A stretch of 64,000 bases of DNA from an uncultured Bdellovibrionales bacterium (GCA_964505555.1 CAZDIO010000117.1:1044-65043), one strand, 5' to 3'. Numbered from the stretch's first letter, positions 26,635 to 55,715 are shown. Made by a program: numbers and translations. Notes: generated by a model not told the origin, from the letters alone.

Positions 26635-26840
26635 TACTCTCACCGCACCTTTAGAATCGGGGGAAGGATTTTTAACGCAGAGGGGGAATATTAATCTCTT
26701 TACCCCTGCGTTAAAAAACACTTACATTTGAACTGCTTACCCCCTCAAAAACAAGCCCACCACCCCCCACACCCCCCTCAAGAAACACTCCTAGGTAGTC
26801 GATTTCCTTATTGAAAACTAAAACGTGCAAAATCTTAACG

Positions 26841-39968: not shown

Positions 39969-42900
39969 GTGCGGCTTCTATTGAAATTCATTACGCTTCT
40001 TCTAGCGCTGTGTAGTATTCTTGCGGCACCCATAGCCTCTGCAGACAACCAGCGTCCTATCACTCATGTAGGAAGCGTCCTTCGGCATGGTCATGTCGGA
40101 GAACCAATGATCTTTGATGCCTCGGAGTCATTTGATCCTGATGGAAACATTGTAAGCTACACGTGGGAATTCGGAGATGGGACGACGGAGCGTTTAACTC
40201 AACCGGTTACTACCCACCGCTATAATCAACAAGGAAACTTTAATGTCGTTCTTACCGTTGAGGACAATAACGGAAAAACCAGTTCCAGTGTATTAGATGG
40301 AAACTCCCCAGGGGTAAGTATCGCCGGAGAGAATTTCTGTATCGGAGATGGGTTTTGTTGGGAGAATCCGTGGCCAATTGGTGAAACACTAAACACGGTC
40401 TGGGCATTTTCAGGGACAAATGTTTTTGCTGCCGGAAATAGTGGCGTCCTACTCCAGTTTAATGGATCAAACTGGATCAGACGTGAGACAAACACAAGAG
40501 TAGATCTCTCCAGAATGTGGGCCAACGATCCCAACAACATCTGGTTTAGCGGGGGATATCGATGGAACGGATCCACTATTGTCCCACCTCAGTTAAGCGC
40601 TGGTGTTGCTGGAACGGGAGACATCGCAGGAATAAATGTAAACGATGTGTGGATGCCGGTTTTGGTAAACGGGACTCGACAAGGCTTGGTTCGCTTTAAT
40701 GGGACTAGCTGGTCAGCACCACAATTAACAGAAGCTGCTTTTTACTTTATTGGAAATGTTCAAGGTAAACTCTACGCTTTAAGTGATCGTGGGCTCTATC
40801 GCTATACTTCTGGTTCATCGTGGACCTTTCTTTCAAATAGCGGGGCTCCCGATGGCGTTGAGAACTATCGTCGGATGTGGGGAAGTTCTGATACTGACAT
40901 CTGGCTTGTTGGAGCAAATCGGGTAAAACGATGGAATGGCACAAGTTGGGGAAATATTCCTGGTGCTCCTACGATATACACCTTTATCGGAGTATGGGGC
41001 ACTAGTCCTTCAGACGTATTTCTGCTGGGGGATAGTTTTTGTAACTCCTACCGTTGGAATGGAAGTACGTTTACCTCCATTCCATATTCTTTGACACTTG
41101 GTTTTGACAATAATATGGGCGCTATTCACGGCACCGGTCCAAACGATGTCTGGGGAGTGGGGAATCTGGGTGCCATAACCCATTGGAACGGATCTCAATG
41201 GTCCGGGGGTCAGGGAATAAGGGATTTTTCTTCTCCGAGTAAGCAGAGGATTTTTGGTTCCGGGACCTCTGCGGTATGGACACCAGCCCAGCATTGGGAC
41301 GGTGGCTCATGGTCATTTCGATCATCCTACGTCGATCGTCCTCACAACAGTATGTTTAGTTTCTCAGTGAACGATATTTGGGTGGGAGGATATACCGGTG
41401 TATCTCATTTTGATGGAAACAATTGGACAACATACAGCTTGGAGTTTGGCACTTTTACAAACCTCGATTCGATAATTGACATTTGGGGAGTAAACTCAAA
41501 TGATCTCTGGGCTCTTAAGGGCGTAGCAGGGAAGTTGTATCATTGGAATGGAAACACCTGGTCCATCGTCTCAAATGCTCCGGTCTCATCAATGATTTGG
41601 GGTGCTTCACCAAATCAGATCTGGACCGCCGGAACAAACTCCGCAAACACTGAAGCGACAAACATTATATATTTCTATAATGGATCAAGCTGGGTCCCCC
41701 AGTATAATGGCGCTGCAAACGTTCGCATCAACCGTCTCTGGGGAAGCAGCGCCTCAGATGTCTGGGCCGTAGGAACAAAAGCTGGAACGGGGTTGATTTT
41801 ACGTTATAACGGCACCACCTGGTCCCAAGTCTCTCCTGCTCCGACGATACCGATTCTTAACGACATCTGGGGAAGAGCAGCAAATGATGTTTGGCTTGTG
41901 GGTGAAGAAGGAATCGTTCTTCATTGGGATGGAACGCAGTTTGAGATCTTTGATGGTGGCACAACAAGAAGATTTACCTCAGTGTGGGCCAGTCCTTTAG
42001 AGGTCTGGATTGCTTCTGGAAACGCTATTCTTCGAAGGAAACTCAGCACCACAACTCCGCACACTCTAACTACAAATATTGGCTCTGGGCAGGGACGAGT
42101 CGATATCGTTCCCCACCAAACAAGTTTTGCATCCGGCAGTGAAGCTACCCTTGTCGCCGTTCCTGCTCTTTCTCAAGTTTTTACTGGGTGGTCTGGTTGT
42201 AGCACGGGAAATCAAAACCCGCTGACGATTACGATGAACACAAACAAAAGCTGCACCGCTAACTTTGCCCCCGGGTATGTGCTCACCGTTGAGCTCCTCG
42301 GTCTTAGTCAAACGATCGGCACAGTGACCATTAGTCCTGACCTTCCTACCTATCCCCATGGAACATCTGTTACTTTGACCGCTGCTACTAACCCGGAAAG
42401 TGGGTGCTCTAGTTTTCTTGATTGGAACGGAAATCCCGCTGGCTCACAAAACCCACTAACGATAACAATGAATAGTGACAAACACCTCGCCGCTCGATTC
42501 ATTACTTCAGGAGCGGCATTACTCACACGATCCGTTAGCAATTCAAGTGCTGGTATGCTTGATGGAATCGGTAGCACCTCAGGCTCAACAAGCTCCATCA
42601 ACTGCGACTCAGACACAAGTCTTCCTGTTAGCGTTAACAACGGTTTTTCTCTAATCGATATCGTTAATAACGGGCAATCAAAAGGTCCACAAAATCCCTA
42701 TGCTCTTTTAGACATTCTTTCTAACCACAATGTGCGTGCGTATTTCCGGCAGAATGGCGATCTCACCCCTCCGGTTATGAGCTCCTTTACAGTTACAAAC
42801 TCTGCTGGTCAAACCTTACCTACCGGGTCTACCCTCTCAGGTCTCGTGGCTTTCCAGACCCAAGTTACTGACAGTGGAGGAGTATATAAGGTTGAGTACT

Positions 42901-43703
42901 ATGCAGGGACCCGCCTCCTTGCCACTGTTTACTATAATGGAAACTCTCCGACGTCTGGTGCGCTTTTTGAATTCGATACTTCAACACTGGCAAACGGAAA
43001 CTATACCCTGAGTGCAAAGGCGTATGATACGGCGCTTAACTCCACCATCTCTGCTGGGTTTCTTATCACCTCAAGTAATCAAGTTTTAACCCCTGTTATT
43101 ATCACAAGCTCTCCGATCGATGGCTTTATTGATCCCTTAGAGGACCGAGATGCGTCAAATGCCAACACCCTTTTTGGTGTTAATGAAGTTTTTATTACCT
43201 TCTCAACTCCGGTAAAGAGCGCAACAAGTGACGGAATTGGTGGTTTGAATTTTCGGGTGCAGTGCTTAAAAAATGGAAACACTGCGTCTGATCTTCAAAC
43301 AAATGGCGTTCCGACGGTTAACGCAATGTGGGGAAGTGGTGCGGGACCTTACCGGCTCTTACTTTCAAAACGACTCTGTCTTGGAGCGTGGACTGAGATC
43401 TCAGCAAAAAACATTATGGCACCCGGTGGAAACCTTATTTCACCAACTGGAAATCGAGTACTCTTAGGATCACTCCCGATGGATCTCACCCAAGACGGAA
43501 GAGTTTTAGGAGATGATGTTTCTCGCTGGCTACAAATTTACAACGATACCTATAACCCGGGAGCCCTTCTTAAACCTCTTGTTCTCGATCAAAAACGAAA
43601 CGGCATTATCACCGGAGAAGATATCTCCCGAGCAATCCAGCTCCTTAACGGCATAGGAACATTCCGCAACTGGAACGGTTATGAGATGGGACCAAAACCG
43701 TAA
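39969..43703 (+). CDS. Large secreted multidomain surface protein. Domain order is signal peptide, PKD domain, about twelve propeller-like ~45-aa repeats, two divergent InlB-B-repeat-like domains, Ig-like region(s), then a C-terminal dockerin-like domain.
   Basis: The 1244-aa product has a GTG start. The PKD region is ...FDASESFDPDGNIVSYTWEFGDGTTE...VLTVEDNNG. The repeats follow the motif [ND]DVW.VG..G.I.HWNG..W. The InlB-B-like region is ...VPALSQVFTGWSGCSTGNQNPLTITMNTNKSCTANFA. The dockerin-like motifs are DLTQDGRVLGDDVSRWLQIY and DQKRNGIITGEDISRAIQLL. Confidence 0.8.
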   Translation: MRLLLKFITLLLALCSILAAPIASADNQRPITHVGSVLRHGHVGEPMIFDASESFDPDGNIVSYTWEFGDGTTERLTQPVTTHRYNQQGNFNVVLTVEDNNGKTSSSVLDGNSPGVSIAGENFCIGDGFCWENPWPIGETLNTVWAFSGTNVFAAGNSGVLLQFNGSNWIRRETNTRVDLSRMWANDPNNIWFSGGYRWNGSTIVPPQLSAGVAGTGDIAGINVNDVWMPVLVNGTRQGLVRFNGTSWSAPQLTEAAFYFIGNVQGKLYALSDRGLYRYTSGSSWTFLSNSGAPDGVENYRRMWGSSDTDIWLVGANRVKRWNGTSWGNIPGAPTIYTFIGVWGTSPSDVFLLGDSFCNSYRWNGSTFTSIPYSLTLGFDNNMGAIHGTGPNDVWGVGNLGAITHWNGSQWSGGQGIRDFSSPSKQRIFGSGTSAVWTPAQHWDGGSWSFRSSYVDRPHNSMFSFSVNDIWVGGYTGVSHFDGNNWTTYSLEFGTFTNLDSIIDIWGVNSNDLWALKGVAGKLYHWNGNTWSIVSNAPVSSMIWGASPNQIWTAGTNSANTEATNIIYFYNGSSWVPQYNGAANVRINRLWGSSASDVWAVGTKAGTGLILRYNGTTWSQVSPAPTIPILNDIWGRAANDVWLVGEEGIVLHWDGTQFEIFDGGTTRRFTSVWASPLEVWIASGNAILRRKLSTTTPHTLTTNIGSGQGRVDIVPHQTSFASGSEATLVAVPALSQVFTGWSGCSTGNQNPLTITMNTNKSCTANFAPGYVLTVELLGLSQTIGTVTISPDLPTYPHGTSVTLTAATNPESGCSSFLDWNGNPAGSQNPLTITMNSDKHLAARFITSGAALLTRSVSNSSAGMLDGIGSTSGSTSSINCDSDTSLPVSVNNGFSLIDIVNNGQSKGPQNPYALLDILSNHNVRAYFRQNGDLTPPVMSSFTVTNSAGQTLPTGSTLSGLVAFQTQVTDSGGVYKVEYYAGTRLLATVYYNGNSPTSGALFEFDTSTLANGNYTLSAKAYDTALNSTISAGFLITSSNQVLTPVIITSSPIDGFIDPLEDRDASNANTLFGVNEVFITFSTPVKSATSDGIGGLNFRVQCLKNGNTASDLQTNGVPTVNAMWGSGAGPYRLLLSKRLCLGAWTEISAKNIMAPGGNLISPTGNRVLLGSLPMDLTQDGRVLGDDVSRWLQIYNDTYNPGALLKPLVLDQKRNGIITGEDISRAIQLLNGIGTFRNWNGYEMGPKP

Positions 43704-43727
43704 TTGGCTGTAAAGTAGACCCATGAG

Positions 43728-44375
43728 TCAGAGAACATCGTATATCGCCCAGGGAACTTGAGACCTAAGTGCCCAATAGCGATCACCATACGACCAATGC
43801 CACCATTCAAATTCATAGTTTATAAATCCCTGACTGCTCATGGCTTGAATTAAAATCTGTCGGTTTGCTTGCGCTACGGATGAGATGTTCTCTGCATGAG
43901 TAAATCCGGCATTGTGATTTTGAATTGGAGTCTCGTCACTTGTAGAACCCATATCGAGCTCCTTTCCAAAACGATCAATGAGAGAAAGATCTATCGCCGA
44001 ACCCGTTGCATGCGGGGGAAACTCATCTGGGTGGGCGACATACAAAGCCGCATCATCTCTCAATGCTTGGTCATCTTTTTCTGGGAACTTCTCTTTGAGC
44101 GCTTGAAAATAGTGCTGATAAATCGTGCGTTGAATTGAGAGTGACCGATATCCCTCTTCAATGAGGAACTTCATTCCATCAGGCAACAAAACACTGGCCT
44201 GACAGAGTCGACTGGCCACGCTCTGGCGAATCAGACTAAATTGGGGGTTTGGCTCTTGCCTTTTTTTTGAAAAAGAAAACTTTTCGAACGTGCGTAAATC
44301 CACCAGGGGCTCATAACACTCTCGTATTGGCATTGAGAGCACGTGAGAATTTGACAGCAATACTCTGGTGGTCAT
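43728..44375 (-). CDS. ddpX: D-alanyl-D-alanine dipeptidase (VanX/DdpX, M15D family).
   Basis: The 215-aa product has the zinc-site motif HATGSAIDL (SxHxxGxAxD) and the C-terminal EWWHWSYGD (E-W-W-H-[FW] motif). Confidence 0.8.
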   Translation of the reverse strand: MTTRVLLSNSHVLSMPIRECYEPLVDLRTFEKFSFSKKRQEPNPQFSLIRQSVASRLCQASVLLPDGMKFLIEEGYRSLSIQRTIYQHYFQALKEKFPEKDDQALRDDAALYVAHPDEFPPHATGSAIDLSLIDRFGKELDMGSTSDETPIQNHNAGFTHAENISSVAQANRQILIQAMSSQGFINYEFEWWHWSYGDRYWALRSQVPWAIYDVL

Positions 44376-45121
44376 TACCCCTTCTTCTCTACTAGGTAAC
44401 AGGAGAAATGTTCGCGCTCTCCCTCAACGTTTACTAACCGAAGCTCACCAAAGCCCACCTCGATCATCTGTTGTTGAAGCTCAGAAAATGTGATCAACCG
44501 GGACGCACGCTCTACAAAATAAGAACTTTCACCAATTTGTAATTTAATTCTCCATATTCGCGTAGCATCTTCAAAACGAGCAATGATCGTTTCTTCAATT
44601 CTCACCTCGAGTCCTCCCACTTGAGCGCTAAAGTCACTGTTCATTATTGGATGAGTTTGGCTTTTCTCATTTGGAAGATCCAGGTAGAAACTCCCGTGAG
44701 GTTTGATACAGGCTGCAAAGCTTTGAAGAATGCTTTTTAACTTTTCATTTGTTACAACCGCCTGTTGACCATCTTCCCAGGTATCTGCATACATCAGGGA
44801 GTTTCCACGACAGATCAATAAATCAAACCGTTCGGGGAAGATGCTCCCGAGACTGCTCCAATGATGAACTCTGGGAACTACTGGCAATCCTTGTCGAGAG
44901 GCATTCTCCTCTAAACGCGTTAACATCTCCTTACTTGAATCACTGAGCTCGATTGCGTACCCTGCCTTGATTAAATCAAGACTTAAAAACCCAGTGCCCG
45001 CAGCACAGTCAAGAATATTACTCTTTCGAAAGGGAGAAAAAAGCCGATCAAAGCTCCGAAAGAGTTTGGGGCGATTATAAATCGCTTGTAAATACAGGTC
45101 ATAAAGTTCTGGAAAGCTCAC
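44375..45121 (-). CDS. Class I SAM-dependent methyltransferase.
   Basis: The 248-aa product has motif I ILDCAAGTGFLSLDL. Its stop overlaps the ddpX start. Confidence 0.7.
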   Translation of the reverse strand: MSFPELYDLYLQAIYNRPKLFRSFDRLFSPFRKSNILDCAAGTGFLSLDLIKAGYAIELSDSSKEMLTRLEENASRQGLPVVPRVHHWSSLGSIFPERFDLLICRGNSLMYADTWEDGQQAVVTNEKLKSILQSFAACIKPHGSFYLDLPNEKSQTHPIMNSDFSAQVGGLEVRIEETIIARFEDATRIWRIKLQIGESSYFVERASRLITFSELQQQMIEVGFGELRLVNVEGEREHFSCYLVEKKG

Positions 45122-45178
45122 CGTAATACCCTTGTCATTCTCTGCCTTCTTATCTTTATGAAAAACGGATTTAATATC

Positions 45179-46207
45179 TTATTTGATCTTCCTCGGAGGA
45201 TTAAGAATATTTCTAAATCCCGGGGTCCATTCATCATAATGAATCACAAGACTGTCAATTTTTCGAATCAATTTTGGAAACTCCTTGCGAAGCATCTCAA
45301 GAAGTTTTTCATAGGCAGAAAAACTTTCAATCACAATCTCTAGCTCAAGAGACCAGAGGTTTCGTAGAAAGTAGATAACTTGTGGAATATTCGATACGTA
45401 TTTGATGAATCGTTGATACTCTCGTTCTTCAAAGCTATGTACCTCGATCAAAGTTTTAAAATATGTAAGTCCTAGTTTTTTAAAGTCGAGATCAACTCGA
45501 TAGTGTAGCAAAATCCCTGCTTGCTCTAACTTCTGCATCCGCGCTCGCACAATCGCTGGAGTTGTGCGCAAACGGCTTGCAATTTCGGTTACAGGAATTC
45601 TTGCATCATCAACAAGCTCAGCAATGATATTATAGTCTACTGCTTTTAGATTTGCCGGGGTGACATCTTTGACATATTCAAGTGGGGGAGAACAATGTCC
45701 AGTAAGATAATTACTTGGATACTGGAGAACAACCACAGGCACGTAACCCTGAAGATCTACCACTACCGATCGAAAATCTGTGGTTAATTTTTCAATAACT
45801 TGAAACAGCTCACTATAATGTTGATAAAAAAGTCCGATGAGTAGATCCCAAGATCCAGAGGTGAGTCCATACCAATATACATTTCCAAGCTTTTTCAAAT
45901 AGCTAATTAGCTTCTCTCGCTCATCAGAGATATTAATCAGTTTGACGTGAATTTTATAAAGATGATAACCCATCTTTCCTGGACTAAAAGAGGTCCGAAA
46001 GCCCCGGATAACTCCGGCATCTAAAAGTCGGTGCAGATGATACTCCACCGTTTGTCGTGGCCGTCCAAGGCGCTCCGATATCGCCGGAAGCGAAGTTCGA
46101 CAGTCAAGCTCCAACACATGTAGCAGCTCTCGATCAAACGGCGTCAAAACTGCGTGCTGGAGTTCCTTAACTTTCATAGGGGAGACTATATCAAAATTGC
46201 CAACCAA
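45179..46207 (-). CDS. Tandem-duplicated Lrp/AsnC-family transcriptional regulator (two HTH_AsnC plus RAM-like halves in one polypeptide).
   Basis: The 342-aa product has two HTH regions: ...LDCRTSLPAISERLGRPRQTVEYHLHRLLDAGVIRGF and ...DDARIPVTEIASRLRTTPAIVRARMQKLEQAGIL. It is divergent from the ddl-fusion gene. Confidence 0.7.
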   Translation of the reverse strand: MVGNFDIVSPMKVKELQHAVLTPFDRELLHVLELDCRTSLPAISERLGRPRQTVEYHLHRLLDAGVIRGFRTSFSPGKMGYHLYKIHVKLINISDEREKLISYLKKLGNVYWYGLTSGSWDLLIGLFYQHYSELFQVIEKLTTDFRSVVVDLQGYVPVVVLQYPSNYLTGHCSPPLEYVKDVTPANLKAVDYNIIAELVDDARIPVTEIASRLRTTPAIVRARMQKLEQAGILLHYRVDLDFKKLGLTYFKTLIEVHSFEEREYQRFIKYVSNIPQVIYFLRNLWSLELEIVIESFSAYEKLLEMLRKEFPKLIRKIDSLVIHYDEWTPGFRNILNPPRKIK

Positions 46208-46382
46208 TGATATTCGGTCCGTTTTTAAGTAAAACTAAATAAATTCAATTAGTTAAACTACAAACGACCAATCCGATATTTAGCAATATTTAACAAATCT
46301 TGCCTTTTTAAATAACTTCTGCCAATATTCTTCTGGGCTGCTTTGGTGCTCCCATAGTCAAAAATAAGCGTCTTTTGAGAAA
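46208..46382. promoter_or_regulatory. AT-rich divergent intergenic region between the Lrp/AsnC regulator and the tandem Ddl-like ligase. Presumed promoters and operator.
   Basis: It is 175 bp and AT-rich. It has the classic divergent regulator/target architecture. No precise hexamers were assigned. Confidence 0.3.
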
Positions 46383-48803
46383 ATGATAAAGATTGCCATA
46401 CTCTGTGGAGGATCATCTGCCGAACGAGGGATCTCCCTCAACTCCGCTCGATCCGTCTACGACCATCTTCCTCGAACACAATTTGAAATCTCATTAGTCT
46501 ATTTTGATCTCCTACTCGAACCATATCAGATCACCCCAGCACAACTGTACTCAAATACACCTTCAGATTTTGATTTTAAACTACATCACGTAGCACACCC
46601 TCTCAGCAAGCAAGCCCTCGCGCAGTTACTGACCAATGTAGATCTAGTTTTTCCGCTCATTCATGGGCGGTTTGGCGAAGATGGTGAACTTCAAGCGATG
46701 CTTGAGAACTTAGGTTGTAACGTTCTGGGTCTTGATAGTCAGGCTTGTTTGCAAAGCTACGACAAAGCACTGGCACGAACACATCTGAGACAACTAGGAC
46801 TTTTCACCCTTCCCTACCTTCTCCTCAATAATACCAATGGCGCACTCAAAGAAGTAGAGAACTTCATGAGCCAATACAGCCTGGAAAAGATTGTCGTAAA
46901 GCCCTGTCGGGGAGGTTCAAGTATTGGGGTTGGCGTAGCACTTAATTCACAAGAAGCGGTAGCGCTCATTGAGGAAATACTGAGCAAAAACATTGACTCA
47001 CAAGCACTTGTTGAGCCCTACTGTGTCGGCCAAGAGTTTACTGTGATCGTTTTCCAAAACGATGTCGGCGAACCGGTACCTCTCGTTCCAACAGAGATTG
47101 AGTTATTAAATCGTGATCAACGGTCCATTTTTAGCTATCGCAGAAAGTATCTCCCTTCTCACCAGACGGTATATCATAGCCCACCACGCTTTTCGCCGAA
47201 GATCCTCTCAGAGATCAGCGCGCATGCAAAATCAGTCTTTCGCTTCTTTCAAATGCGGGATTTCGTAAGAATTGACGGTTGGGTTTTTCCGGATGGTCGC
47301 ATTCTTTTTTCTGACATAAACCCAATAAGCGGCATGGAACAAAATAGCTTTTTTTTCCAACAAACAGCACAACTGGGGCTCTCACATACTGAGGCACTTC
47401 AATTTCTCATCCGCAATGCCTGCAAACGTCGTGCTCTAAGAATTCCCCTCACTACCGAACTTCCTACTCAAAAACAGAAAATCCCCGTGCGCGTTATTTT
47501 TGGGGGCAATACTGCCGAGCGTCAAGTGTCATTGATGAGTGGTACAAATGTTTGGTTAAAACTTCGCGGATCAAACCAATATGAACCTACCCCCTACCTG
47601 CTTGGGACCGATGGCACTATTTGGCAATTACCGTACGCTTATTGTCTCTATCACACCGTTGAAGAAATCTCTGCTCTCTGCGAAAAGAGCATTGAACGGG
47701 AACAGAGGCTAGCACCTCTTCGCGCGCAGATTCTAGAAGATCTGTGTCTTCCTTCGCAAAAACCTCATGCAGAATTTCTTCCTCATCATTTAACACTCAC
47801 GGAGTTCCTCGCCTGTAAAGATCTCGTTTTTATTGCACTCCACGGAGGGGTCGGGGAAAATGGTATCTTTCAAGCTCAGCTTGCATCAGCAAATATTCCC
47901 TTCACCGGCTCAGCGGCACCGGCCTCTCAGCGATGCATGGATAAACTTGCAACTTCAGACACTTTGCAAGGTCTCAACTCTCTTGGAATACTTACCCCAA
48001 AAAAATTTAAACTCAATGTTCTTGAAATTGAACAAATAATTAAAAATGAAGCTCGCCTAGAAGCCCTTTGGAAACAACTACTCACTGAATTATCAAATAG
48101 TAAGGGAGAACAAACGATCATCATTAAACCGAACGATGATGGTTGCTCCGTAGGGGTGGCGCGCTTAGCCTCTGTGAAAGATTTGCAGCATTATTTACAA
48201 GCAATCATTGACAATCAAGAGGCCATATCTCCTGGGACCCTTCTTCTCCATGAAGAAATTATTGAAATGCCTTCATTCAAACCAGAACTGCTGCTCTGTG
48301 AAGAATATATCATTTGCGATCACGTTTGCATCGAGGGCACTCATATACAGTGGACCTCCCGCACTGACTGGATTGAAATCACAATGGGGGTTGTTGAGCG
48401 AAATGGCAAGATGCACTCTTTCCATCCAAGCCTCACCGTTGCTTCTGGGAATGTGTTGAGCGTAGAAGAAAAATTTCAAGGGGGCACGGGAGTAAATATC
48501 ACTCCACCTCCAGAGCAGTTTATTTCATTTGAAACGATCGAACTTGCAAAAAAGAGAATGGAGCTGGTTGCAGGGAGACTGGGCCTTCGTGGTTTTGCGC
48601 GAATTGATGCTTTTCTCCATCGTCACACCGGAGAATTAATAATTATCGAAGCAAACACGATTCCAGGGCTTACACCATCGACGGTAATTTACCATCAAGC
48701 TCTTGCTGAACCCCAGCCGGTAACTCCGAGAGATTTCCTTGAAGGAATTATTAGTGCCGCACAGATGAAGAGCGCTCCTGCGTTCGGATCAGAAGCGCGT
48801 TAG
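46383..48803 (+). CDS. Fusion of two complete D-alanine--D-alanine-ligase-like ATP-grasp modules (Ddl-Ddl tandem, 806 aa).
   Basis: Half 1 has the Ddl N-terminus MIKIAILCGGSSAERGISLNSA, then HGRFGEDGELQAMLE, KPCRGGSSIGV and RIDGWVFPDGRILFSDINPISGM. Half 2 (from about aa 390) has VRVIFGGNTAERQVSLMSG, HGGVGENGIFQAQLA, IKPNDDGCSVGVA and ARIDAFLHRHTGELIIIEANTIPGLT. Confidence 0.8.
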   Translation: MIKIAILCGGSSAERGISLNSARSVYDHLPRTQFEISLVYFDLLLEPYQITPAQLYSNTPSDFDFKLHHVAHPLSKQALAQLLTNVDLVFPLIHGRFGEDGELQAMLENLGCNVLGLDSQACLQSYDKALARTHLRQLGLFTLPYLLLNNTNGALKEVENFMSQYSLEKIVVKPCRGGSSIGVGVALNSQEAVALIEEILSKNIDSQALVEPYCVGQEFTVIVFQNDVGEPVPLVPTEIELLNRDQRSIFSYRRKYLPSHQTVYHSPPRFSPKILSEISAHAKSVFRFFQMRDFVRIDGWVFPDGRILFSDINPISGMEQNSFFFQQTAQLGLSHTEALQFLIRNACKRRALRIPLTTELPTQKQKIPVRVIFGGNTAERQVSLMSGTNVWLKLRGSNQYEPTPYLLGTDGTIWQLPYAYCLYHTVEEISALCEKSIEREQRLAPLRAQILEDLCLPSQKPHAEFLPHHLTLTEFLACKDLVFIALHGGVGENGIFQAQLASANIPFTGSAAPASQRCMDKLATSDTLQGLNSLGILTPKKFKLNVLEIEQIIKNEARLEALWKQLLTELSNSKGEQTIIIKPNDDGCSVGVARLASVKDLQHYLQAIIDNQEAISPGTLLLHEEIIEMPSFKPELLLCEEYIICDHVCIEGTHIQWTSRTDWIEITMGVVERNGKMHSFHPSLTVASGNVLSVEEKFQGGTGVNITPPPEQFISFETIELAKKRMELVAGRLGLRGFARIDAFLHRHTGELIIIEANTIPGLTPSTVIYHQALAEPQPVTPRDFLEGIISAAQMKSAPAFGSEAR

Positions 48804-49103
48804 GACAATTTCGCACCTCTACAGGGGCCTATCAGTAGACTGCATTCATACTTGAGAGAGAAGCGGCTGTCTTTGAGCCTTCGTCTTTGAAAAAAGGAAT
48901 CGCGATAACCACGATCAGCGCGGCGAGTAATCCAATGACTATGAGGCTTATTGCCCCCCGGTTACCAAAGGGTTTTTGCCGAAATTCTTTATGATCTGAT
49001 GTTGTAAAAGTCATGTTAGTCTATCGGGCAGGGAAGATCAGAACACAAGCTCAAAACGAAGTTATCCCTCAGATAGCATCGGCACACCTCTTCTCTACAC
49101 CTT

Positions 49104-51308
49104 TCAAGAGTGAATTGAGATTTTAGGAAGCCAGTTCAATCCCCGAGGAAGATACCAATTCCACTTACCAAGAAGCTTTAGGCTCGCTGGAAGCAGCAAC
49201 GATCGAACCACCGTCGCATCAAGAAAGACGGCCACCGCCAACCCAATTCCCAGCTGCTTCATCACCGGAAGCTCTAGCGTGGCAATAATCGAAAAAACAG
49301 AAACCATAATCAATGCTGCGCTGGTGATCGTTCGTGATGTCGTTAGGAGTGCCCTTTTAATCGCAACATCGGTCTCCTTCCCAGACAACACCTCTTCGCG
49401 CACCCGTGAGAGGAGAAAAACATGATAATCCATCGAGAGACCAAACAAAATTGCAAACAACAGTGCCGGAACAAAACTTTCAATCACCCCGTATTGTAAA
49501 TCATCAAACACATTCCTTTTAAACACCTCTTGAAACACGAGCACCATGACTCCAAATGCAGCGCCAGTGGAAAGTAGGTTCAAAAGTATGGCCTTCAATG
49601 GCACCACAATGGAACGAAAAGCAATCAATAAAAACATCATGCTCAGTCCGAGAACTGCGGCATACACTCGCCAAGTTTTTTTGCCGTACCGCTCATCGTC
49701 GTCAACTGCATACGGAAGTGTGCCACTAAGAGTGGCCTCGACCCCCGCTGCGTCATACAATTCCGGAATCATTATATGACGAATATCTTCAACAGCTTTG
49801 TGAGCGGCAGCATCATTGATATTCCCTGGCACTACAAAACTGTAGCGCACTACAGAATTATCCTTAGACCGGTCAACGCGCAGCGGGCCACGAAGTTCAG
49901 ATATTTCAGATATACGTTTTAGAAACCGTGGCACAGTTCCATCTTGTTCCCGAGCCGACAGATCTGCACCCCTAAGAATTACAGATAAATCTGCGCCAAC
50001 CAAATCAGGAAACGCCACTTGTATCTTGCGAAATGCCTGAGTGAGCTGCAATGAATATGGGAGGGTTTGTGGTTGTACGGTGCTGCCCAAATGGATCCTC
50101 GTTGAAAAATAACAAAACAAAAGGAGAAGCCCGCCCATAACAACCATAATAGATTTGGGGTGGCTGATACTTAATTGCAACAAACCACCAATGGTCGATT
50201 CGTCACGACTTTCAATCCGCCGACGAATTCGACCACATTCAATTACTGGCCCAAGAATCAAAAGCAATAAAGGAAGTATGGTAACACAACTAAAAACGGT
50301 AATGATTGTTGCCGCGATCGAAACGGCAGCCATCGATGTCAGTATCGTATCCTGCATTAGCAAAAGCCCAGAGAGAGAAAGCGCCACGGTCAATCCACTT
50401 AAAACTACCGCTCGACCTGCGGTTCTCCGAGCAATGGTAATTGCCTCTGGGTACGAGCGCCCGCTTTGGACCTCCTCTCGCATCCGACTAATGATGAAGA
50501 GAGAATAATCCACCCCAATCGCCAAAACCAATAAGACCACAAGCTGCGAAGCTGTCGCGCTGACTGGTCCAACAAGTGTGCTAAAAATTGCGGTGACTCC
50601 AAGAGCTGCTCCAAGACTAACAAGTGCAAATAACAACGGAATCAAAGCCGCGACAACAGAACTAAAGGTCCAGATAAGCACTAACAGAGAAAGAGGAAGA
50701 GTAAAGATTAACGATCTATCGAGATCCCGGTTAATTAAAGCAAAAATCTCATTATCCCCCAACCCTTTACTGATATAGCTGATTTTAAAATCAGGGAAGT
50801 TTTCTAACCACTCTGTAATCTCCTTTGGAAATAACGCCAACGCTTGCGCGGACCGATCCACCGAAACATCTGTTTCGGCGATAAACAAGAGGCTCCTTTG
50901 ATCAGCAGAGGTAAAGATCGCGTCATTGAGTGAATTATGCCCGGCGGTCTGAACATTGAGAAAGAGCGCTGACTTTTCCTGCTCAGCAGTATTTTTAGTA
51001 GCGCTCTTAGATCCCTGCAAAAAACTCAGTAACGAATCACGCGCCTGGATGAATTTAATATCGCTGACATCTTCGCTCGGATGATCGAGCATTACTAGCA
51101 CCTGATCGCGTGGTGGAATTCCCGCTGCAATCGCTAGTTGTTCGCCGTGATTCTCAGATAACGCCAGGTGAGAGGAAGGCCCAGGAAGCACCGTTTTAAA
51201 ACCAAGCCAGAGCCCGCCTGCAAACAGCAAACATGAACCTAGAAGCCAAAAACTGATCCATCTAACGACACTACGTCCAGATCTGGTACTACGATCTGCC
51301 TCAATCAC
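49104..51308 (-). CDS. MMPL/RND-superfamily lipid exporter (HpnN/MmpL-like).
   Basis: The 734-aa product has the 2 x (TM + large periplasmic loop + 5 TM) topology. The conserved motifs are LAIGVDYSLFIISRMREE and LSMDYHVFLLSRVREE. It has a GTG start. Confidence 0.8.
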   Translation of the reverse strand: MIEADRSTRSGRSVVRWISFWLLGSCLLFAGGLWLGFKTVLPGPSSHLALSENHGEQLAIAAGIPPRDQVLVMLDHPSEDVSDIKFIQARDSLLSFLQGSKSATKNTAEQEKSALFLNVQTAGHNSLNDAIFTSADQRSLLFIAETDVSVDRSAQALALFPKEITEWLENFPDFKISYISKGLGDNEIFALINRDLDRSLIFTLPLSLLVLIWTFSSVVAALIPLLFALVSLGAALGVTAIFSTLVGPVSATASQLVVLLVLAIGVDYSLFIISRMREEVQSGRSYPEAITIARRTAGRAVVLSGLTVALSLSGLLLMQDTILTSMAAVSIAATIITVFSCVTILPLLLLILGPVIECGRIRRRIESRDESTIGGLLQLSISHPKSIMVVMGGLLLLFCYFSTRIHLGSTVQPQTLPYSLQLTQAFRKIQVAFPDLVGADLSVILRGADLSAREQDGTVPRFLKRISEISELRGPLRVDRSKDNSVVRYSFVVPGNINDAAAHKAVEDIRHIMIPELYDAAGVEATLSGTLPYAVDDDERYGKKTWRVYAAVLGLSMMFLLIAFRSIVVPLKAILLNLLSTGAAFGVMVLVFQEVFKRNVFDDLQYGVIESFVPALLFAILFGLSMDYHVFLLSRVREEVLSGKETDVAIKRALLTTSRTITSAALIMVSVFSIIATLELPVMKQLGIGLAVAVFLDATVVRSLLLPASLKLLGKWNWYLPRGLNWLPKISIHS

Positions 51309-51883
51309 TTTGTTGCCCCTACTTCAGCAATACAATTGCGATCGAGCGGTCTGAGCAGATCTTCAAGAAAGAATGCCGACAGTTGCGCACGATTCTCGAG
51401 TTTTGATTTCTGATATAAAGAGGTCGCTTGCTGACGCACCGTTCGTTCACTACGTCCCCGAATCTCTGCAATTTCATTATGAGAAAACCCCTTAAGAATT
51501 AGCAATCCGATATCCCGCTCTGCTTCGGTCAAGTTCCATTCCTCAAACTGTCGATCGATCGCCTGACCAAGTCCCGCCAATAACTGAGCAGCGTCGCTCT
51601 TCCATTTAATGGCATCGGCTCGCGATGTAATAATTTCACCCTTCAAAAGTCGGGTAACCCGGTCATGCTGTTTCAATATATTTCTCCAGAGAAATACCGA
51701 TCCGGTCAACGAGGCGAAGATGATTGCAGCTTCAATTAAAAGGTGCGGCAGCTCAATACCGGAGAGTGAATCTTCAACCATATCGAATATTGCAAATAGA
51801 GCGACTGCCAATAGCGCGCCCGCAGCTACTTTGGAGTTCTTCTGACCTCCAGATTCAGCACTTTCATATCCGTCAAACGTCAT
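51305..51883 (-). CDS. LuxR-family HTH regulator with N-terminal transmembrane segments.
   Basis: The 192-aa product has the C-terminal LuxR HTH LTEAERDIGLLILKGFSHNEIAEIRGRSERTVRQQATSLYQKSKL and two N-terminal hydrophobic helices. Its stop overlaps the MMPL start. Confidence 0.7.
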   Translation of the reverse strand: MTFDGYESAESGGQKNSKVAAGALLAVALFAIFDMVEDSLSGIELPHLLIEAAIIFASLTGSVFLWRNILKQHDRVTRLLKGEIITSRADAIKWKSDAAQLLAGLGQAIDRQFEEWNLTEAERDIGLLILKGFSHNEIAEIRGRSERTVRQQATSLYQKSKLENRAQLSAFFLEDLLRPLDRNCIAEVGATK

Positions 51884-52059: not shown

Positions 52060-53289
52060 ATGAAATTCAAGTTTGACGTAATTGTTATTGGCGCATCGTT
52101 ATCGGGATCCTCTGCGGCGCTTCATCTGGCTGATGCCGGAAGGACTATCTGTTTGATCGATAAAGCTAACTTCCCTCGGCCAAAGTCTTGCGGTGAAGGC
52201 CTCTCTCCACAGGGAGCGGCGATCATTCGAACTCTGGGACTCTCCAAGGAGCTCACCCAGGCACCACACCAACCTCTCTGTGGCTATACGATACACTGGG
52301 GCCAAACGATTGTCTCAATTCCGTATGCACAAAAAAATTATTCTCTTTCAGATTGCACACCAGAAGAGACAGTAGACAATACCGTGGAGTTCGGCCTGGG
52401 CATCAAACGCCAAATTCTTGATGAGATGCTAGTAACCAAATGCCGTGATTCAAAACAGATCACTTTTTTTGATAAAAGTCCGGTAAGATCTATCACCTCA
52501 TTATCGGATGGTTTTGATGTCGAGATCTCGACAAACAAATTTCACGCCCGACGACTTGTCATTGCTGATGGTGCAAATTCTCCTTCATCTCGTCTGCTAG
52601 CTATTCCATCAACCGGAAGAACCTCTCCAAAAAAATCTGCTTTTACTTGCGGCTACCGCGGATCGTGGTCTAAGCCAATTGGGCATGTTCATATCCTAAA
52701 CTACACTGGTATCCGGCTCTTTATCACTCCCGTTGGCAACAATGAAGTCTCGGTTGCGCTCCTTGCTGCCCCCCACGCTGCTCGCATCCTCAGCTCAGCA
52801 ACCAAACGCGATCTTTTAATCTCCAATGCTTTTCAGGTAATTGGATTTACCCCCGGAGAGCTCCTTCAAAGCGGGGGATCGAGTAATATTGGTCATCACC
52901 GCAGACCCGCGCAGATCGGTGGCGCGTATCTTGTTGGAGATGCTGTTGAGCAACTTGATCCGGTTGGTGGCATGGGCATGACTCATGCTTTATTCTCAGG
53001 GAAATTTGCCGCAGAGGCACTCGCCTCAGACCTCGCGGGAGCGTTCAGCCCAAAAGAAGCCGGGGCCAGGTATCAAGCCCAGCGTGAAGCTGCTGTTATT
53101 CCGCTTCGTGGCTTTACCCGAATGGTGGATCATGTATTTTTTCTTTCAGAATATCTCCCACTTATACGACCCTTACTGGGATCAGCAATGAGCGTCTCAG
53201 CCAGCCGTGAAGTTCATCAATTAAAACGCATTTTGCCTTTTTCTGGCCTCACCGCAAAATGTCTTCTCTATGGAGCTGGATACCTATGA
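52060..53289 (+). CDS. FAD-dependent oxidoreductase (geranylgeranyl-reductase/FixC-like flavoprotein; candidate hydroxylase or reductase).
   Basis: The 409-aa product has the FAD motif DVIVIGASLSGSSAALHLA and ...KSCGEGLSP.... Confidence 0.7.
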   Translation: MKFKFDVIVIGASLSGSSAALHLADAGRTICLIDKANFPRPKSCGEGLSPQGAAIIRTLGLSKELTQAPHQPLCGYTIHWGQTIVSIPYAQKNYSLSDCTPEETVDNTVEFGLGIKRQILDEMLVTKCRDSKQITFFDKSPVRSITSLSDGFDVEISTNKFHARRLVIADGANSPSSRLLAIPSTGRTSPKKSAFTCGYRGSWSKPIGHVHILNYTGIRLFITPVGNNEVSVALLAAPHAARILSSATKRDLLISNAFQVIGFTPGELLQSGGSSNIGHHRRPAQIGGAYLVGDAVEQLDPVGGMGMTHALFSGKFAAEALASDLAGAFSPKEAGARYQAQREAAVIPLRGFTRMVDHVFFLSEYLPLIRPLLGSAMSVSASREVHQLKRILPFSGLTAKCLLYGAGYL

Positions 53290-53945
53290 AAACATTTTTA
53301 CGATTAGTGTTTTTTCTTACCTTGCTTTTGATTCTCAACTTCCCGCTTCCTTTTGGCAAGGCTGAGAATCTTCCGTCGCCAACAGACTCTCCCTGGTTTC
53401 TCCCCATTGAGTTAAACGACAACAACACCAAAATCTCGTTTGAGGTCGATTCGACCTGGCACCGGATTCATGGCAAGACTTCTGGCATTCATGGACGCTT
53501 ATGGCTCGAAGAGTCAAACGATCCCGGATCAATTCGTGGCACTATTTCAATTCCCGTCGGCCAGTTTGATACGAACAATTCAAGTCGTGATTCGCGACTC
53601 CGTGAAGTGATGAAAGCAGAAAAGTTCTCTGAAGTTACCTTCTCCCTTAATTCGGTTGAAAATATCTGCTCCCCTCAATCACTAATTGGAGATGATTCCT
53701 GCCTTGGAAACGCTACCGGATCATTATCGATTGAAGACCACAAAGAATTGGTCCCTGTGAATTTTTCAGTTTCGCGTTCTCCTACCGGTTTTGTAATCAT
53801 TGGAACAGCAATCTTTAGCTGGCGCTCTTATCCAATCGTCGATCCCTCAATTCTCATTGCCAAGCTTGATGACCAGGTAACGATCTCTTTTACTGTTAAC
53901 ACGATCTCTCGTCTTTCGACTTCTAACCCAATAAATAAAAATTAG
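53286..53945 (+). CDS. YceI-like (polyisoprenoid/lipid-binding) periplasmic protein.
   Basis: It has a signal peptide (MKTFLRLVFFLTLLLIL) and the pattern ...FEVDSTWHRIHGKTSGIHGRLWL...NNSSRDSRLREVMKAEKF..VTF. Its start overlaps the upstream stop (ATGA). Confidence 0.65.
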   Translation: MKTFLRLVFFLTLLLILNFPLPFGKAENLPSPTDSPWFLPIELNDNNTKISFEVDSTWHRIHGKTSGIHGRLWLEESNDPGSIRGTISIPVGQFDTNNSSRDSRLREVMKAEKFSEVTFSLNSVENICSPQSLIGDDSCLGNATGSLSIEDHKELVPVNFSVSRSPTGFVIIGTAIFSWRSYPIVDPSILIAKLDDQVTISFTVNTISRLSTSNPINKN

Positions 53946-53956
53946 GATGGTTTGAA

Positions 53957-55000: not shown

Positions 55001-55012
55001 CAAGACGATCAG

Positions 55013-55714: not shown

Positions 55715-55715
55715 C

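What the first reader, a model, noticed from the sequence alone, without database searches (positions are those of the whole stretch)
43728..48803. van-like D-Ala-D-Ala module built around an 806-aa tandem fusion of two Ddl-like ligases
A single ORF encodes two full D-Ala-D-Ala-ligase-like ATP-grasp enzymes. Each half keeps the Ddl N-terminal, central (GE[DN]G) and C-terminal (R.D.......E.N..PG) signatures. Canonical Ddl is a single module of about 300-360 aa. The gene is divergently paired with a duplicated Lrp/AsnC regulator. It is flanked by a VanX/DdpX D-Ala-D-Ala dipeptidase and a SAM methyltransferase. A ligase plus a VanX-type dipeptidase is the logic of vancomycin-resistance clusters, in which the dipeptidase destroys D-Ala-D-Ala while the ligase makes an alternative dipeptide or depsipeptide. 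Here there is no VanH, and the ligase is doubled. The locus could specify an alternative peptidoglycan stem terminus, a D-amino-acid dipeptide signal or metabolite, or a methylated D-dipeptide natural product.
Basis: partly seen in the sequence, partly recalled or inferred. Interest (0 to 1): 0.75.

Follow-up and report, generated by a model that had tools for sequence, protein, structure and literature searches.

The report
Tandem D-Ala-D-Ala ligase with dipeptidase-methyltransferase partners
One gene really does encode two complete, apparently active D-alanine-D-alanine ligases fused head to tail; this doubled enzyme belongs to a large, uncharacterised family that most likely makes cell-wall precursors, and in this lineage it sits in a recurring gene set with a VanX-like dipeptidase, an amine N-methyltransferase and a doubled Lrp regulator.

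Summary
ORF 46383-48803 encodes 806 aa with two full Ddl modules. Beside it lie a doubled Lrp/AsnC regulator, a SAM methyltransferase and a VanX-like M15 dipeptidase.

The fusion is not peculiar to this locus. At least 569 species-level genomes, mostly Patescibacteria/CPR, encode full-length relatives at 45-55% identity. Their commonest neighbour is alanine racemase (22 of 83 loci), followed by FtsA-like and PBP-like genes. None of those loci carries the M15 or methyltransferase gene. The family is therefore most likely a cell-wall D-Ala-D-Ala ligase.

Both halves keep the catalytic set. The N half always has the Ser/Tyr pair of dipeptide-forming Ddl. The C half always has Cys/Phe, and Phe marks depsipeptide-forming Ddl in lactic acid bacteria.

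The local module is nevertheless real. All four genes recur, rearranged, in a second organism. Methyltransferase, M15 and a tandem Ddl only 32% identical recur in a third, next to murF. The methyltransferase resembles glycine/sarcosine and peptide N-terminal N-methyltransferases, and its closest relatives usually sit beside M15 or Ddl-type genes.

No VanH was found and no Van-type ligase signature. Plant DDL shares the doubled architecture.

The parts
46383..48803 (+). Tandem D-Ala-D-Ala ligase, 806 aa. N module is about aa 1-350 (46383-47432), a poorly conserved linker is about aa 351-366, and the C module is about aa 367-806 (47481-48803), with helical and beta insertions relative to DdlB.
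   Evidence: establish the two modules. maps the residues against DdlB. One search gives an AF2 model with pLDDT 88.6 and pTM 0.88. One search gives mean pairwise identity in the family of 0.62 for the N half, 0.19 for the linker and 0.56 for the C half.
46208..46382 (.). A 175-bp AT-rich divergent intergenic region between the regulator gene and the ligase gene. It presumably holds the promoters and an Lrp-type operator.
   Evidence: One search gives the sequence. The equivalent 219-bp spacer in L086 holds a perfect 16-bp palindrome, TTTGCATTAATGCAAA. No operator shared by the two spacers could be shown, and the promoter scan was not above the shuffled expectation.
45179..46207 (-). Tandem-duplicated Lrp/AsnC-family regulator, 342 aa, with two HTH plus effector-domain units.
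   Evidence: One search finds HTH_24 and HTH_AsnC-type in two stretches each. One search matches the AsnC/LrpA models in two stretches. Its ortholog (58% identity) is likewise divergent from the tandem ligase in L086.
44375..45121 (-). SAM-dependent methyltransferase, 248 aa, of the glycine/sarcosine-type and peptide N-terminal amine N-methyltransferase type.
   Evidence: Searches give the family matches. One search shows a small family: 19 representatives at E<=1e-30. The family profile matches GSMT 5gwx at E 1.9e-24 and GNMT at about 3e-19. The AF2 model has pLDDT 94.5. Foldseek neighbours include GSMT, CypM, GNMT, CcbJ and NmbA, alongside two uncharacterised SAM methyltransferases at the top and some C-methyltransferases.
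43728..44375 (-). VanX-like M15 zinc D-Ala-D-Ala dipeptidase, 215 aa, translationally coupled to the methyltransferase gene (TAATG overlap).
   Evidence: One search gives PF01427 at 77.6 bits. One search shows invariant R76, H121..D128 and E189xxH192. In one search the only solved relative is VanX 1r44 (E 4.7e-14), with catalytic residues aligned. One search shows the overlap.

Best explanation
The 806-aa protein belongs to an old, widespread family of tandem D-Ala-D-Ala ligases. I infer, without coordinates to check it, that the two ATP-grasp modules pack as a covalently linked pseudo-heterodimer in place of the usual Ddl homodimer.

Both modules keep the ATP-, Mg- and substrate-binding residues, so both probably ligate. 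The N module has the Glu-Ser-Tyr triad of dipeptide-forming Ddl. The C module invariably has Cys and Phe at the Ser150 and Tyr216 positions, which suggests a relaxed or different second-substrate preference.

The family feeds peptidoglycan precursor synthesis: alanine racemase makes D-Ala, the tandem ligase makes D-Ala-D-Ala (possibly also D-Ala-D-X), and MurF adds it to the stem.

In the window's lineage this otherwise ordinary family member has acquired a local control and turnover set:
- A divergently transcribed doubled Lrp/AsnC regulator, presumably sensing an amino acid such as alanine.
- A translationally coupled pair: a VanX-like dipeptidase that hydrolyses D-Ala-D-Ala, and a GSMT/CypM-like N-methyltransferase that methylates the alpha-amino group of D-Ala or of the dipeptide.

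Together these would tune or edit the dipeptide pool that reaches MurF.

Shown here: the architecture, residue conservation, family size, neighbourhood statistics and recurrence of the module. Inferred: all substrates, the pseudo-dimer packing, the regulator's effector and the direction of flux.
For: Architecture and family:
- establish the two Ddl modules.
- More than 120 full-length homologs at 46-55% identity.
- At least 569 species-level genomes. About three quarters of the 80 loci listed are Patescibacteria/CPR. The rest include Bdellovibrionales, Opitutales, Anaerolineae, Parachlamydiaceae and proteobacterial MAGs.

Cell-wall role:
- Alanine racemase is adjacent in 22 of 83 loci, often 2-18 nt downstream on the same strand.
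- FtsA-like genes occur in 9 loci, PBP-like genes in 8, and PGM/PMM-type mutases in 5.
- MurF lies next to the distant tandem Ddl in L172.

Both halves active:
- All of E15, K97, K144, E180, E187, K215, R255, D257, N272 and G276 are kept in 30 of 30 sequences, with half-specific S/Y/D against C/F/E.
- The same signature is kept at 32% identity in L172.
- Both halves are under comparable constraint.
- The window and L086 enzymes differ from the family at only 5 near-invariant positions, none catalytic.

Module:
- L086 carries all four genes, rearranged.
- L172 carries M15, MT and a tandem Ddl.
- Among the 8 closest MT-family contexts, 5 have M15 and 4 have a Ddl-type ligase.
- The MT resembles alpha-amine N-methyltransferases.
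- The M15 keeps the VanX catalytic residues.
- MT and M15 are translationally coupled.

[quoted passage not shown] Plant DDL is a fusion of two DDL enzymes (PMC9954125), and its loss in moss gives the macrochloroplast phenotype of peptidoglycan-gene knockouts (PMC9434261, PMC9954125).
Against: - No alr, mur or fts gene lies in this 64-kb window, so the cell-wall role here rests on family-level association.
- A second, canonical ddl elsewhere in the genome cannot be excluded.
- In L086 the ligase, MT and M15 appear co-transcribed (gaps of 31 and 5 nt). That would be futile if the dipeptidase simply destroyed the ligase's product, so the arrangement favours an editing or product-modifying role that my model only sketches.
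- No activity was measured. The MT substrate is a guess from fold and neighbourhood.
- No operator shared between the two Lrp2-ddl spacers was found.
Confidence: 0.5

Rival explanations
1. Dual-terminus or intrinsic-resistance system, following the logic of lactic acid bacteria. The Tyr-type N module makes D-Ala-D-Ala and the Phe-type C module makes D-Ala-D-lactate or another D-Ala-D-X. When the regulator switches on the M15 dipeptidase, D-Ala-D-Ala is removed and only the alternative terminus reaches MurF, changing susceptibility to glycopeptide-like antibiotics.
For: - Phe at the Tyr216 position and Cys at Ser150 are invariant in the C half.
- Ligase and dipeptidase are co-oriented and tightly spaced in L086.
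- In L172 the set lies beside murF and a MobQ/TraA-type relaxase, so it may be mobile.
Against: - The Tyr-type half is equally invariant.
- Most family members have no dipeptidase (0 of 84 loci) and pair instead with alanine racemase.
- No D-lactate dehydrogenase was seen near any instance.
- Van-ligase models score far below their cut-offs.
- This reading gives the methyltransferase no role.
- The C half is too diverged for a single residue to predict specificity.
Confidence: 0.2
2. Specialised-metabolite pathway. Here the tandem ligase is an accessory copy that builds a D-amino-acid dipeptide. The methyltransferase N-methylates it, and the product serves as a signal, antimetabolite or osmolyte. 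The M15 enzyme provides proofreading or self-protection. A normal ddl elsewhere serves the cell wall.
For: - Relatives of the MT sit in small biosynthetic-looking operons: AMP-binding enzyme, MT, single Ddl-like ligase, AGT-like aminotransferase and a LysE exporter; alpha/beta hydrolase, MT, carrier protein, aaRS-like ligase and M15; M15, MT, an FAD/NAD-binding protein and an MFS transporter.
- The MT resembles N-methyltransferases that tailor natural products, such as CypM and CcbJ.
- The module is rare among carriers of the tandem Ddl.
Against: - The ligase here is a typical family member with no active-site change relative to the alr-linked CPR enzymes.
- No exporter, adenylating enzyme or carrier protein lies in the module in the window. 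The MMPL gene next door is not conserved in L086.
- In L172 the neighbour is murF, which points to the cell wall.
Confidence: 0.2
3. One half is a dead structural domain, or the ORF is an artefact that joins two adjacent ddl genes.
For: The C half is more diverged from canonical Ddl (E 2e-15 against 8.5e-31) and carries three insertions.
Against: - Every catalytic residue is kept in both halves in 30 of 30 sequences, and again in a relative of 32% identity.
- The same continuous ORF of about 800 aa occurs in hundreds of independent assemblies.
- The AF2 model is confident across both modules (pTM 0.88).
Confidence: 0.03

Closest known systems
Canonical bacterial D-Ala-D-Ala ligases (E. coli DdlB, Salmonella DdlA; ATP-grasp; TIGR01205)
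   Same: Each half has the three-domain Ddl fold and the catalytic residues. The family is linked to alanine racemase, FtsA-like genes and MurF.
   Different: There are two modules in one chain of about 800 aa instead of a homodimer of 300-370-aa subunits. The halves are only about 25% identical to each other. They carry fixed half-specific substitutions: Asp at position 270 in the N half; Cys150, Phe216 and Thr281 in the C half. The C half also has large insertions. No solved structure has this architecture.
Plant DDL (Arabidopsis At-DDL, Physcomitrella PpDDL BAE45860, rice OsDDL BAF22630)
   Same: It is described as a fusion gene of two putative DDL enzymes (PMC9954125, text and Fig. S3 legend). 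Knockout of the moss gene gives macrochloroplasts like other peptidoglycan-gene knockouts (PMC9434261, PMC9954125).
   Different: It is eukaryotic, nuclear-encoded and plastid-related. I could not obtain a plant sequence, so orthology with the bacterial family and the half-specific signatures were not tested.
Phe-type depsipeptide Ddl plus D-Ala-D-Ala dipeptidase of vancomycin-resistant lactic acid bacteria
   Same: Phe replaces the active-site Tyr, here in the C half only. A VanX-like dipeptidase is present in the same organism. No VanH lies in a cluster (PMC5996685).
   Different: In lactic acid bacteria a single-module enzyme carries the Phe. Here a Tyr-type and a Phe-type module are fused, the dipeptidase is present in only a few lineages, and no activity is known.
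vanHAX-type glycopeptide resistance clusters
   Same: A Ddl-type ligase and an M15 VanX-type dipeptidase lie together under a local regulator. In L172 a murF and a relaxase lie nearby.
   Different: There is no VanH and no VanRS. Ligase scores against Van models are far below their cut-offs. The dipeptidase scores below the VanX and DdpX equivalog cut-offs. The regulator is of the Lrp/AsnC type. A methyltransferase is an extra component.
Glycine/sarcosine N-methyltransferase (GSMT), GNMT and CypM-type alpha-amine N-methyltransferases
   Same: The MT family profile matches GSMT over almost its full length (E 1.9e-24) and GNMT. The predicted fold matches GSMT, CypM, GNMT, CcbJ and NmbA. The family has a conserved RGNS stretch; from memory this resembles the GNS segment of GNMT, which I did not check here.
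   Different: Identity is only about 20%. NCBIfam GSMT scores 50 bits against a cut-off of 350. The genomic partners are D-Ala-handling enzymes, not betaine-pathway genes.

Membership tests
[quoted passage not shown] | N-terminal and C-terminal Ddl domains score above the curated cut-offs | tested here: met
   PF01820 scores 142.9 bits (cut-off 34.6) and PF07478 scores 141.1 bits (cut-off 24), each in two stretches. TIGR01205 scores 301 bits against 245.65.
[quoted passage not shown] | Catalytic, ATP-, Mg- and D-Ala-binding residues (DdlB E15, K97, K144, E180, E187, K215, R255, D257, E270, N272, G276, S281) | tested here: met
   All are present in both halves, allowing conservative E270D in the N half and S281T in the C half. 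The pattern is invariant in 30 family members.
[quoted passage not shown] | Glu15-Ser150-Tyr216 specificity triad of dipeptide-forming enzymes | tested here: inconclusive
   The N half has E/S/Y, so the feature is met. The C half has E/C/F, so it is not met.
[quoted passage not shown] | Genomic association with cell-wall and D-Ala genes (alr, mur, fts) | tested here: inconclusive
   Met for the family: alr in 22 of 83 loci, FtsA-like in 9, PBP-like in 8, and MurF in L172. Not met in the window itself.
[quoted passage not shown] | ATP-dependent synthesis of D-Ala-D-Ala | not testable with these tools
   This needs an enzyme assay.
Van-type D-Ala-D-Lac or D-Ala-D-Ser ligases (VanA/B/D/G/C ...) | Score above the NCBIfam model cut-offs for Van ligases | tested here: not met
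   VanA scores 123 against 775, VanG 202 against 495, the D_ala_D_lac model 158 against 550, and the D_ala_D_ser model 172 against 520.
vanHAX-type resistance cluster | A VanH-type D-lactate dehydrogenase and a VanRS two-component regulator in the cluster | tested here: not met
   No such domains were found in the ORFs from 39969 to 51883, nor in the L086 and L172 gene lists.
M15D D-Ala-D-Ala dipeptidases (VanX/DdpX; PF01427) | Pfam family membership, plus the zinc ligands and catalytic Glu and Arg (VanX R71, H116, D123, E181, H184) | tested here: met
   PF01427 scores 77.6 bits against 27. R76, H121, D128, E189 and H192 are invariant in 20 relatives and align with VanX 1r44.
M15D D-Ala-D-Ala dipeptidases (VanX/DdpX; PF01427) | Equivalog-level identity with VanX or DdpX | tested here: not met
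   The VanX model scores 43 bits against 320 and the DdpX model 61 bits against 176. This is a separate subfamily, also found in Streptomyces and Patescibacteria.
Plant-type tandem DDL | Two complete DDL modules in one polypeptide | tested here: met
   Searches show this for the window protein. PMC9954125 describes it for the plant proteins.
Plant-type tandem DDL | Sequence orthology: the same duplication event and the same half-specific residues | not tested
   No plant DDL sequence could be retrieved. The AFDB libraries were unavailable and the supplementary sequence figure is an image.
Glycine/sarcosine-type amine N-methyltransferases | Full-length profile and fold similarity to GSMT/GNMT | tested here: met
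   The profile matches 5gwx at E 1.9e-24 over positions 9-237. The Foldseek hits to GSMT chains have E about 2e-16 and TM about 0.7.
Glycine/sarcosine-type amine N-methyltransferases | Equivalog score for bacterial GSMT (NF051855) | tested here: not met
   49.9 bits against a cut-off of 350. Relatives score 52-66 bits.
Lrp/AsnC transcription regulators | AsnC-type HTH followed by an effector (RAM) domain | tested here: met
   HTH_AsnC-type and HTH_24 each occur in two stretches. The AsnC model matches residues 187-303 over profile positions 7-124. The unit is present twice in one chain.

The most novel reading that the evidence does not exclude
The tandem family is a two-in-one ligase whose halves have different jobs. 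A Tyr-type module makes D-Ala-D-Ala. A Cys/Phe-type module makes a depsipeptide or another D-Ala-D-X.

If so, many Patescibacteria and other carriers would build mixed or switchable peptidoglycan termini. Plant plastid DDL might do the same if it proves orthologous.

In the window's lineage an Lrp-controlled VanX-like dipeptidase and an alpha-amine N-methyltransferase would edit or N-methylate the dipeptide pool. That would be a previously undescribed way of remodelling the stem-peptide terminus, or of making an N-methyl-D-Ala compound.
Probability: 0.2. Interest if true: 0.8.

Novelty: new variant of a known kind. Interest (0 to 1): 0.6.

Why it matters
Ddl is an essential enzyme and an antibiotic target (D-cycloserine), and it decides whether glycopeptides can bind the cell wall.

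A fused form with one Tyr-type and one Phe-type active site is conserved across hundreds of mostly uncultured lineages. My literature searches found no study of the bacterial form. This raises a concrete, testable question about what termini these organisms build.

It may also bear on the plant DDL fusion, whose function in angiosperms is still debated (PMC9954125, PMC12681378).

The recurrent trio of tandem Ddl, VanX-like dipeptidase and GSMT/CypM-like N-methyltransferase points to an undescribed branch of D-alanine metabolism. It gives a first functional lead for a small orphan methyltransferase family.

Tried and rejected
- **AFDB fold libraries.** I wanted them to find plant and other named tandem Ddl proteins, but they were unavailable.
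- **Plant DDL papers.** The Plant Cell 2016 and PNAS 2006 papers are not held. The supplement of PMC9954125 gives the At-DDL sequence only as an image. Orthology with plant DDL therefore stays untested.
- **Literature searches.** Searches for bacterial tandem Ddl, for family motifs and for Ddl-dipeptidase-methyltransferase clusters found nothing relevant.
- **Organism identity.** Exact look-ups returned no names and there is no rRNA or Rfam hit in the window. The gene content (HslUV, LysA, GlnA, MMPL, type III PKS) looks to me unlike the reduced genomes of CPR bacteria, but I did not test this.
- **Word-based homolog search with the methyltransferase.** It found only the protein itself. The exhaustive HMMER search was needed.
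- **Plasmid collection.** It holds only single-module Ddl matches.
- **Shared operator.** No operator shared between the Lrp2-ddl spacers of the window and L086 was found. Promoter and terminator scans were not above the shuffled expectation.
- **Lineage-specific active-site change.** I looked for one that might mark a new specificity in the ligases that carry the module. Only five deviations from near-invariant positions were found, none catalytic.
- **Dead-half and artefact readings.** Both were rejected.
- **L003 neighbour.** The 248-aa methyltransferase next to the tandem Ddl in L003 is unrelated to the window's MT (no BLAST or HMM hit).

Full report
**1. Observation**

The ORF list reproduces the finding exactly:
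- M15 peptidase, 43728-44375 (-), 215 aa
- methyltransferase, 44375-45121 (-), 248 aa
- regulator, 45179-46207 (-), 342 aa
- ligase, 46383-48803 (+), 806 aa

Upstream lies a PKD/Ig-repeat surface protein. Downstream lie an MMPL transporter and a LuxR-type gene.

Pfam finds the Ddl N- and C-terminal domains twice each (E about 1e-41). It finds two AsnC-type HTH units in the regulator, PF01427 in the peptidase, and a class I methyltransferase. TIGR01205 is passed at 301 bits against 245.65. Each half alone matches solved Ddl structures: N half E 8.5e-31 to DdlA, C half E 2e-15 to DdlB.

Two details need correcting. The N half has Asp, not Glu, in the R.D...E.N motif. The MT and M15 genes lie beyond the regulator on one side, as an Lrp2-MT-M15 run. 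The MT stop overlaps the M15 start (TAATG). This run is divergent from the ligase across 175 AT-rich bases.

**2. The fusion defines a large family**

A protein search returned more than 120 full-length relatives of about 780-840 aa, at 46-55% identity and 97-100% coverage.

Of the 80 loci returned, about three quarters carry Patescibacteria/CPR labels: Peregrinibacteria/Peribacteria, Gracilibacteria, Paceibacterota, Saccharibacteria-labelled, Berkelbacteria and others. The rest are Bdellovibrionales, Opitutales/Verrucomicrobia, a 6.1-Mb Anaerolineae chromosome, Parachlamydiaceae, Dadabacteria and proteobacterial MAGs.

Neither the PDB nor the plasmid collection holds a tandem form. Four literature searches found no description of the bacterial enzyme.

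[quoted passage not shown] S3 legend). Knockout of the moss gene gives the macrochloroplast phenotype of peptidoglycan-gene knockouts (PMC9434261, PMC9954125). I could not obtain a plant sequence, so orthology is untested.

**3. Both halves look active and are specialised**

I aligned 30 N halves and 30 C halves with E. coli DdlB.

- Both halves keep E15, R16, S19, H63, E68, K97, K144, S151, E180, E187, K215, R255, D257, N272 and G276 in essentially all sequences.
- The N half always has S150, Y216 and S281, with Asp at position 270.
- The C half always has C150, F216 and T281, with Glu at position 270.

A tandem Ddl only 32% identical (L172) shows the same half-specific pattern. The duplication is therefore old and the difference is maintained.

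Mean pairwise identity within the family is 0.62 for the N half and 0.56 for the C half, against 0.19 for the linker. The two halves of one protein are about 25% identical.

AlphaFold gives pLDDT 88.6 and pTM 0.88 for the whole chain. That fits a fixed arrangement of the two modules. Whether it copies the Ddl homodimer interface I could not check, because no coordinates were accessible.

[quoted passage not shown] From memory, Park, Lin and Walsh (1996) reported that Y216F and S150A mutants of DdlB gain D-Ala-D-lactate activity. The C half therefore carries exactly the substitutions associated with relaxed second-substrate choice. It is too diverged for this to be more than a lead.

**4. What the family does**

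I examined 83 loci around family members. Clustering all flanking ORFs, the commonest real neighbour is alanine racemase, in 22 loci. It is usually immediately downstream, either 2-18 nt away on the same strand or convergent with a 3-nt overlap.

A Pfam census of immediate neighbours agrees. Ala_racemase occurs in 16 of 79 downstream and 2 of 68 upstream neighbours. FtsA occurs in 6, PGM/PMM-type mutase in 5, and a PBP transpeptidase in 1.

No locus has an M15 peptidase, the methyltransferase or the doubled Lrp regulator, by BLAST or by profile search.

An alr-ddl pairing in reduced CPR genomes argues that this is their cell-wall D-Ala-D-Ala ligase. What I could not test is whether these genomes, or the window's genome, also hold a single-module ddl. 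The 64-kb window has none, and no alr.

**5. The local module is nevertheless real**

The closest relative of the ligase is P0002, at 55% identity, on an 11.3-kb contig (L086). There the doubled Lrp gene is again divergent from the ligase. The methyltransferase and M15 genes now follow the ligase on the same strand, with gaps of 31 and 5 nt. Identities to the window proteins are 58% (Lrp2), 55% (ligase), 35% (MT) and 51% (M15). Nothing else is syntenic. Four genes kept together through a rearrangement at this divergence indicates functional linkage.

The methyltransferase is rare. The word-based search found only itself. The exhaustive search found 19 cluster representatives at E<=1e-30. I looked up the contexts of the seven closest. 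With the window, these give eight contexts:

| Context | Gene arrangement |
|---|---|
| Window | Lrp2-MT-M15, divergent from tandem Ddl |
| L086 | Lrp2, divergent from tandem Ddl-MT-M15 |
| L168/L169 | LysE; AMP-binding enzyme-MT-single Ddl-AGT-like aminotransferase |
| L170/L171 | AMP-binding enzyme-MT |
| L172 | M15, divergent from MT-tandem Ddl-unknown; MurF and a MobQ/TraA relaxase alongside |
| L173/L174 | M15-MT (4-nt overlap)-FAD/NAD protein-MFS |
| L175/L176 | alpha/beta hydrolase-MT-carrier protein-aaRS-like ligase-M15 |
| L177/L178 | AMP-binding enzyme-MT-aminotransferase |

Five of the eight contexts contain an M15 dipeptidase and four contain a Ddl-type ligase.

The family profile matches glycine sarcosine N-methyltransferase over nearly its full length (E 1.9e-24) and GNMT (about 3e-19). 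The model (pLDDT 94.5) has among its nearest named folds GSMT, CypM (dimethylates a peptide's N-terminal alanine), GNMT, CcbJ and NmbA. All of these methylate an alpha-amino group of an amino acid or small peptide. Two uncharacterised SAM methyltransferases rank first, and some C-methyltransferases also appear. An N-methyltransferase acting on D-Ala or on the N terminus of the dipeptide is therefore the best guess. It remains a guess.

**6. The dipeptidase**

The window protein and 19 relatives keep the VanX Arg, the H..D zinc ligands and the ExxH motif. The only solved relative of the profile is VanX 1r44 (E 4.7e-14), with those residues aligned. It is below the equivalog cut-offs for VanX and DdpX. 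It belongs to a subfamily common in Streptomyces and also present in Patescibacteria.

In 80 metagenomic loci of this subfamily, 10 have an ordinary single-module ddl beside it. These score above the subfamily Ddl cut-offs. Some run gpsA-ddl-M15 and some carry alr as well. None has the methyltransferase. Pairing of this dipeptidase with a D-Ala-D-Ala ligase is thus a recurrent theme outside any van-type cluster. That weakens the inference 'ligase + VanX = alternative terminus'.

**7. Synthesis**

I put about 0.5 on the following. The ORF is a typical member of an ancient tandem Ddl family that supplies the D-Ala-D-Ala (possibly also D-Ala-D-X) unit for MurF. The window and L086 enzymes deviate from near-invariant family positions at only five non-catalytic sites. 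In this lineage the enzyme is placed under a divergent doubled Lrp/AsnC regulator and accompanied by a dipeptidase/N-methyltransferase pair that hydrolyses and/or N-methylates the dipeptide or its D-Ala.

The apparent co-transcription of ligase, MT and M15 in L086 is awkward for simple turnover. It keeps two rivals alive at about 0.2 each:
- A dual-terminus system on the model of lactic acid bacteria, in which the Phe-type half makes the product that survives the dipeptidase.
- A specialised N-methyl-D-dipeptide metabolite pathway, with a separate housekeeping ddl elsewhere.

A dead half or an assembly artefact is excluded for practical purposes.

**8. Novelty and score**

The enzyme family (Ddl), the dipeptidase family and the tandem architecture (in plants) are all known. 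What appears new:
- recognition of a very large bacterial tandem family with fixed Tyr-type and Phe-type halves;
- its link to alanine racemase in CPR genomes;
- the recurrent tandem Ddl / M15 / GSMT-like N-methyltransferase (/ doubled Lrp) gene set.

I rate it a new variant of a known kind, with interest 0.6.

Noticed in passing
window 52060-56459 (+): A run of same-strand genes: an FAD-dependent geranylgeranyl-reductase-like protein, a YceI-like protein, a type III polyketide synthase (DpgA/FabH-like), a class I methyltransferase and an unknown 270-aa ORF. It looks like a small alkylresorcinol- or pyrone-type lipid cluster.
   Followed up: no
window 26811-28982 (+): A 723-aa Ser/Thr protein kinase whose C-terminal part matches ankyrin-repeat Dot/Icm effector models (AnkY, AnkH, AnkG). 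This might hint at a host-associated lifestyle. The organism could not be named.
   Followed up: partly
L172 2-1747 (-) and 9980-11239 (-): The distant tandem Ddl with its M15 and MT partners lies between a MobQ/TraA-type relaxase and a MurF (TIGR01143, 322 bits). A cell-wall-precursor gene set may therefore be carried on a mobile element.
   Followed up: partly
L076 13339-14367 (+): In a 'Candidatus Moanabacter' genome, a separate 342-aa ORF lies about 1 kb downstream of the tandem Ddl. It matches only the C-terminal part of the C half (query residues 509-790, 48% identity). It may be a partial duplicate or a remnant.
   Followed up: no
L086 6824-6839: A perfect 16-bp palindrome, TTTGCATTAATGCAAA, with further TTTGCA-like boxes, lies in the spacer between the doubled Lrp gene and the tandem Ddl. 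It is a candidate operator. No equivalent was found in the window's spacer.
   Followed up: partly
L086 2690-3253 and L173 1317-1967 / L174 2330-2980: A phosphoribosyltransferase-domain gene lies a few kb from the MT/M15 genes in two unrelated contexts. This may be coincidence, and there is no counterpart in the window.
   Followed up: no
window 11757-17966 (-) and 39969-43703 (+): Two very large ORFs. One is 2069 aa and was not analysed. The other is a 1244-aa secreted protein with PKD, InlB B-repeat-like and Ig domains, immediately upstream of the module.
   Followed up: no
window 43728-44375 (-): The public gene call for the dipeptidase (P0122, 201 aa) starts later than the first ATG. Alignment with 19 relatives supports the longer 215-aa form, whose start overlaps the methyltransferase stop.
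   Followed up: yes
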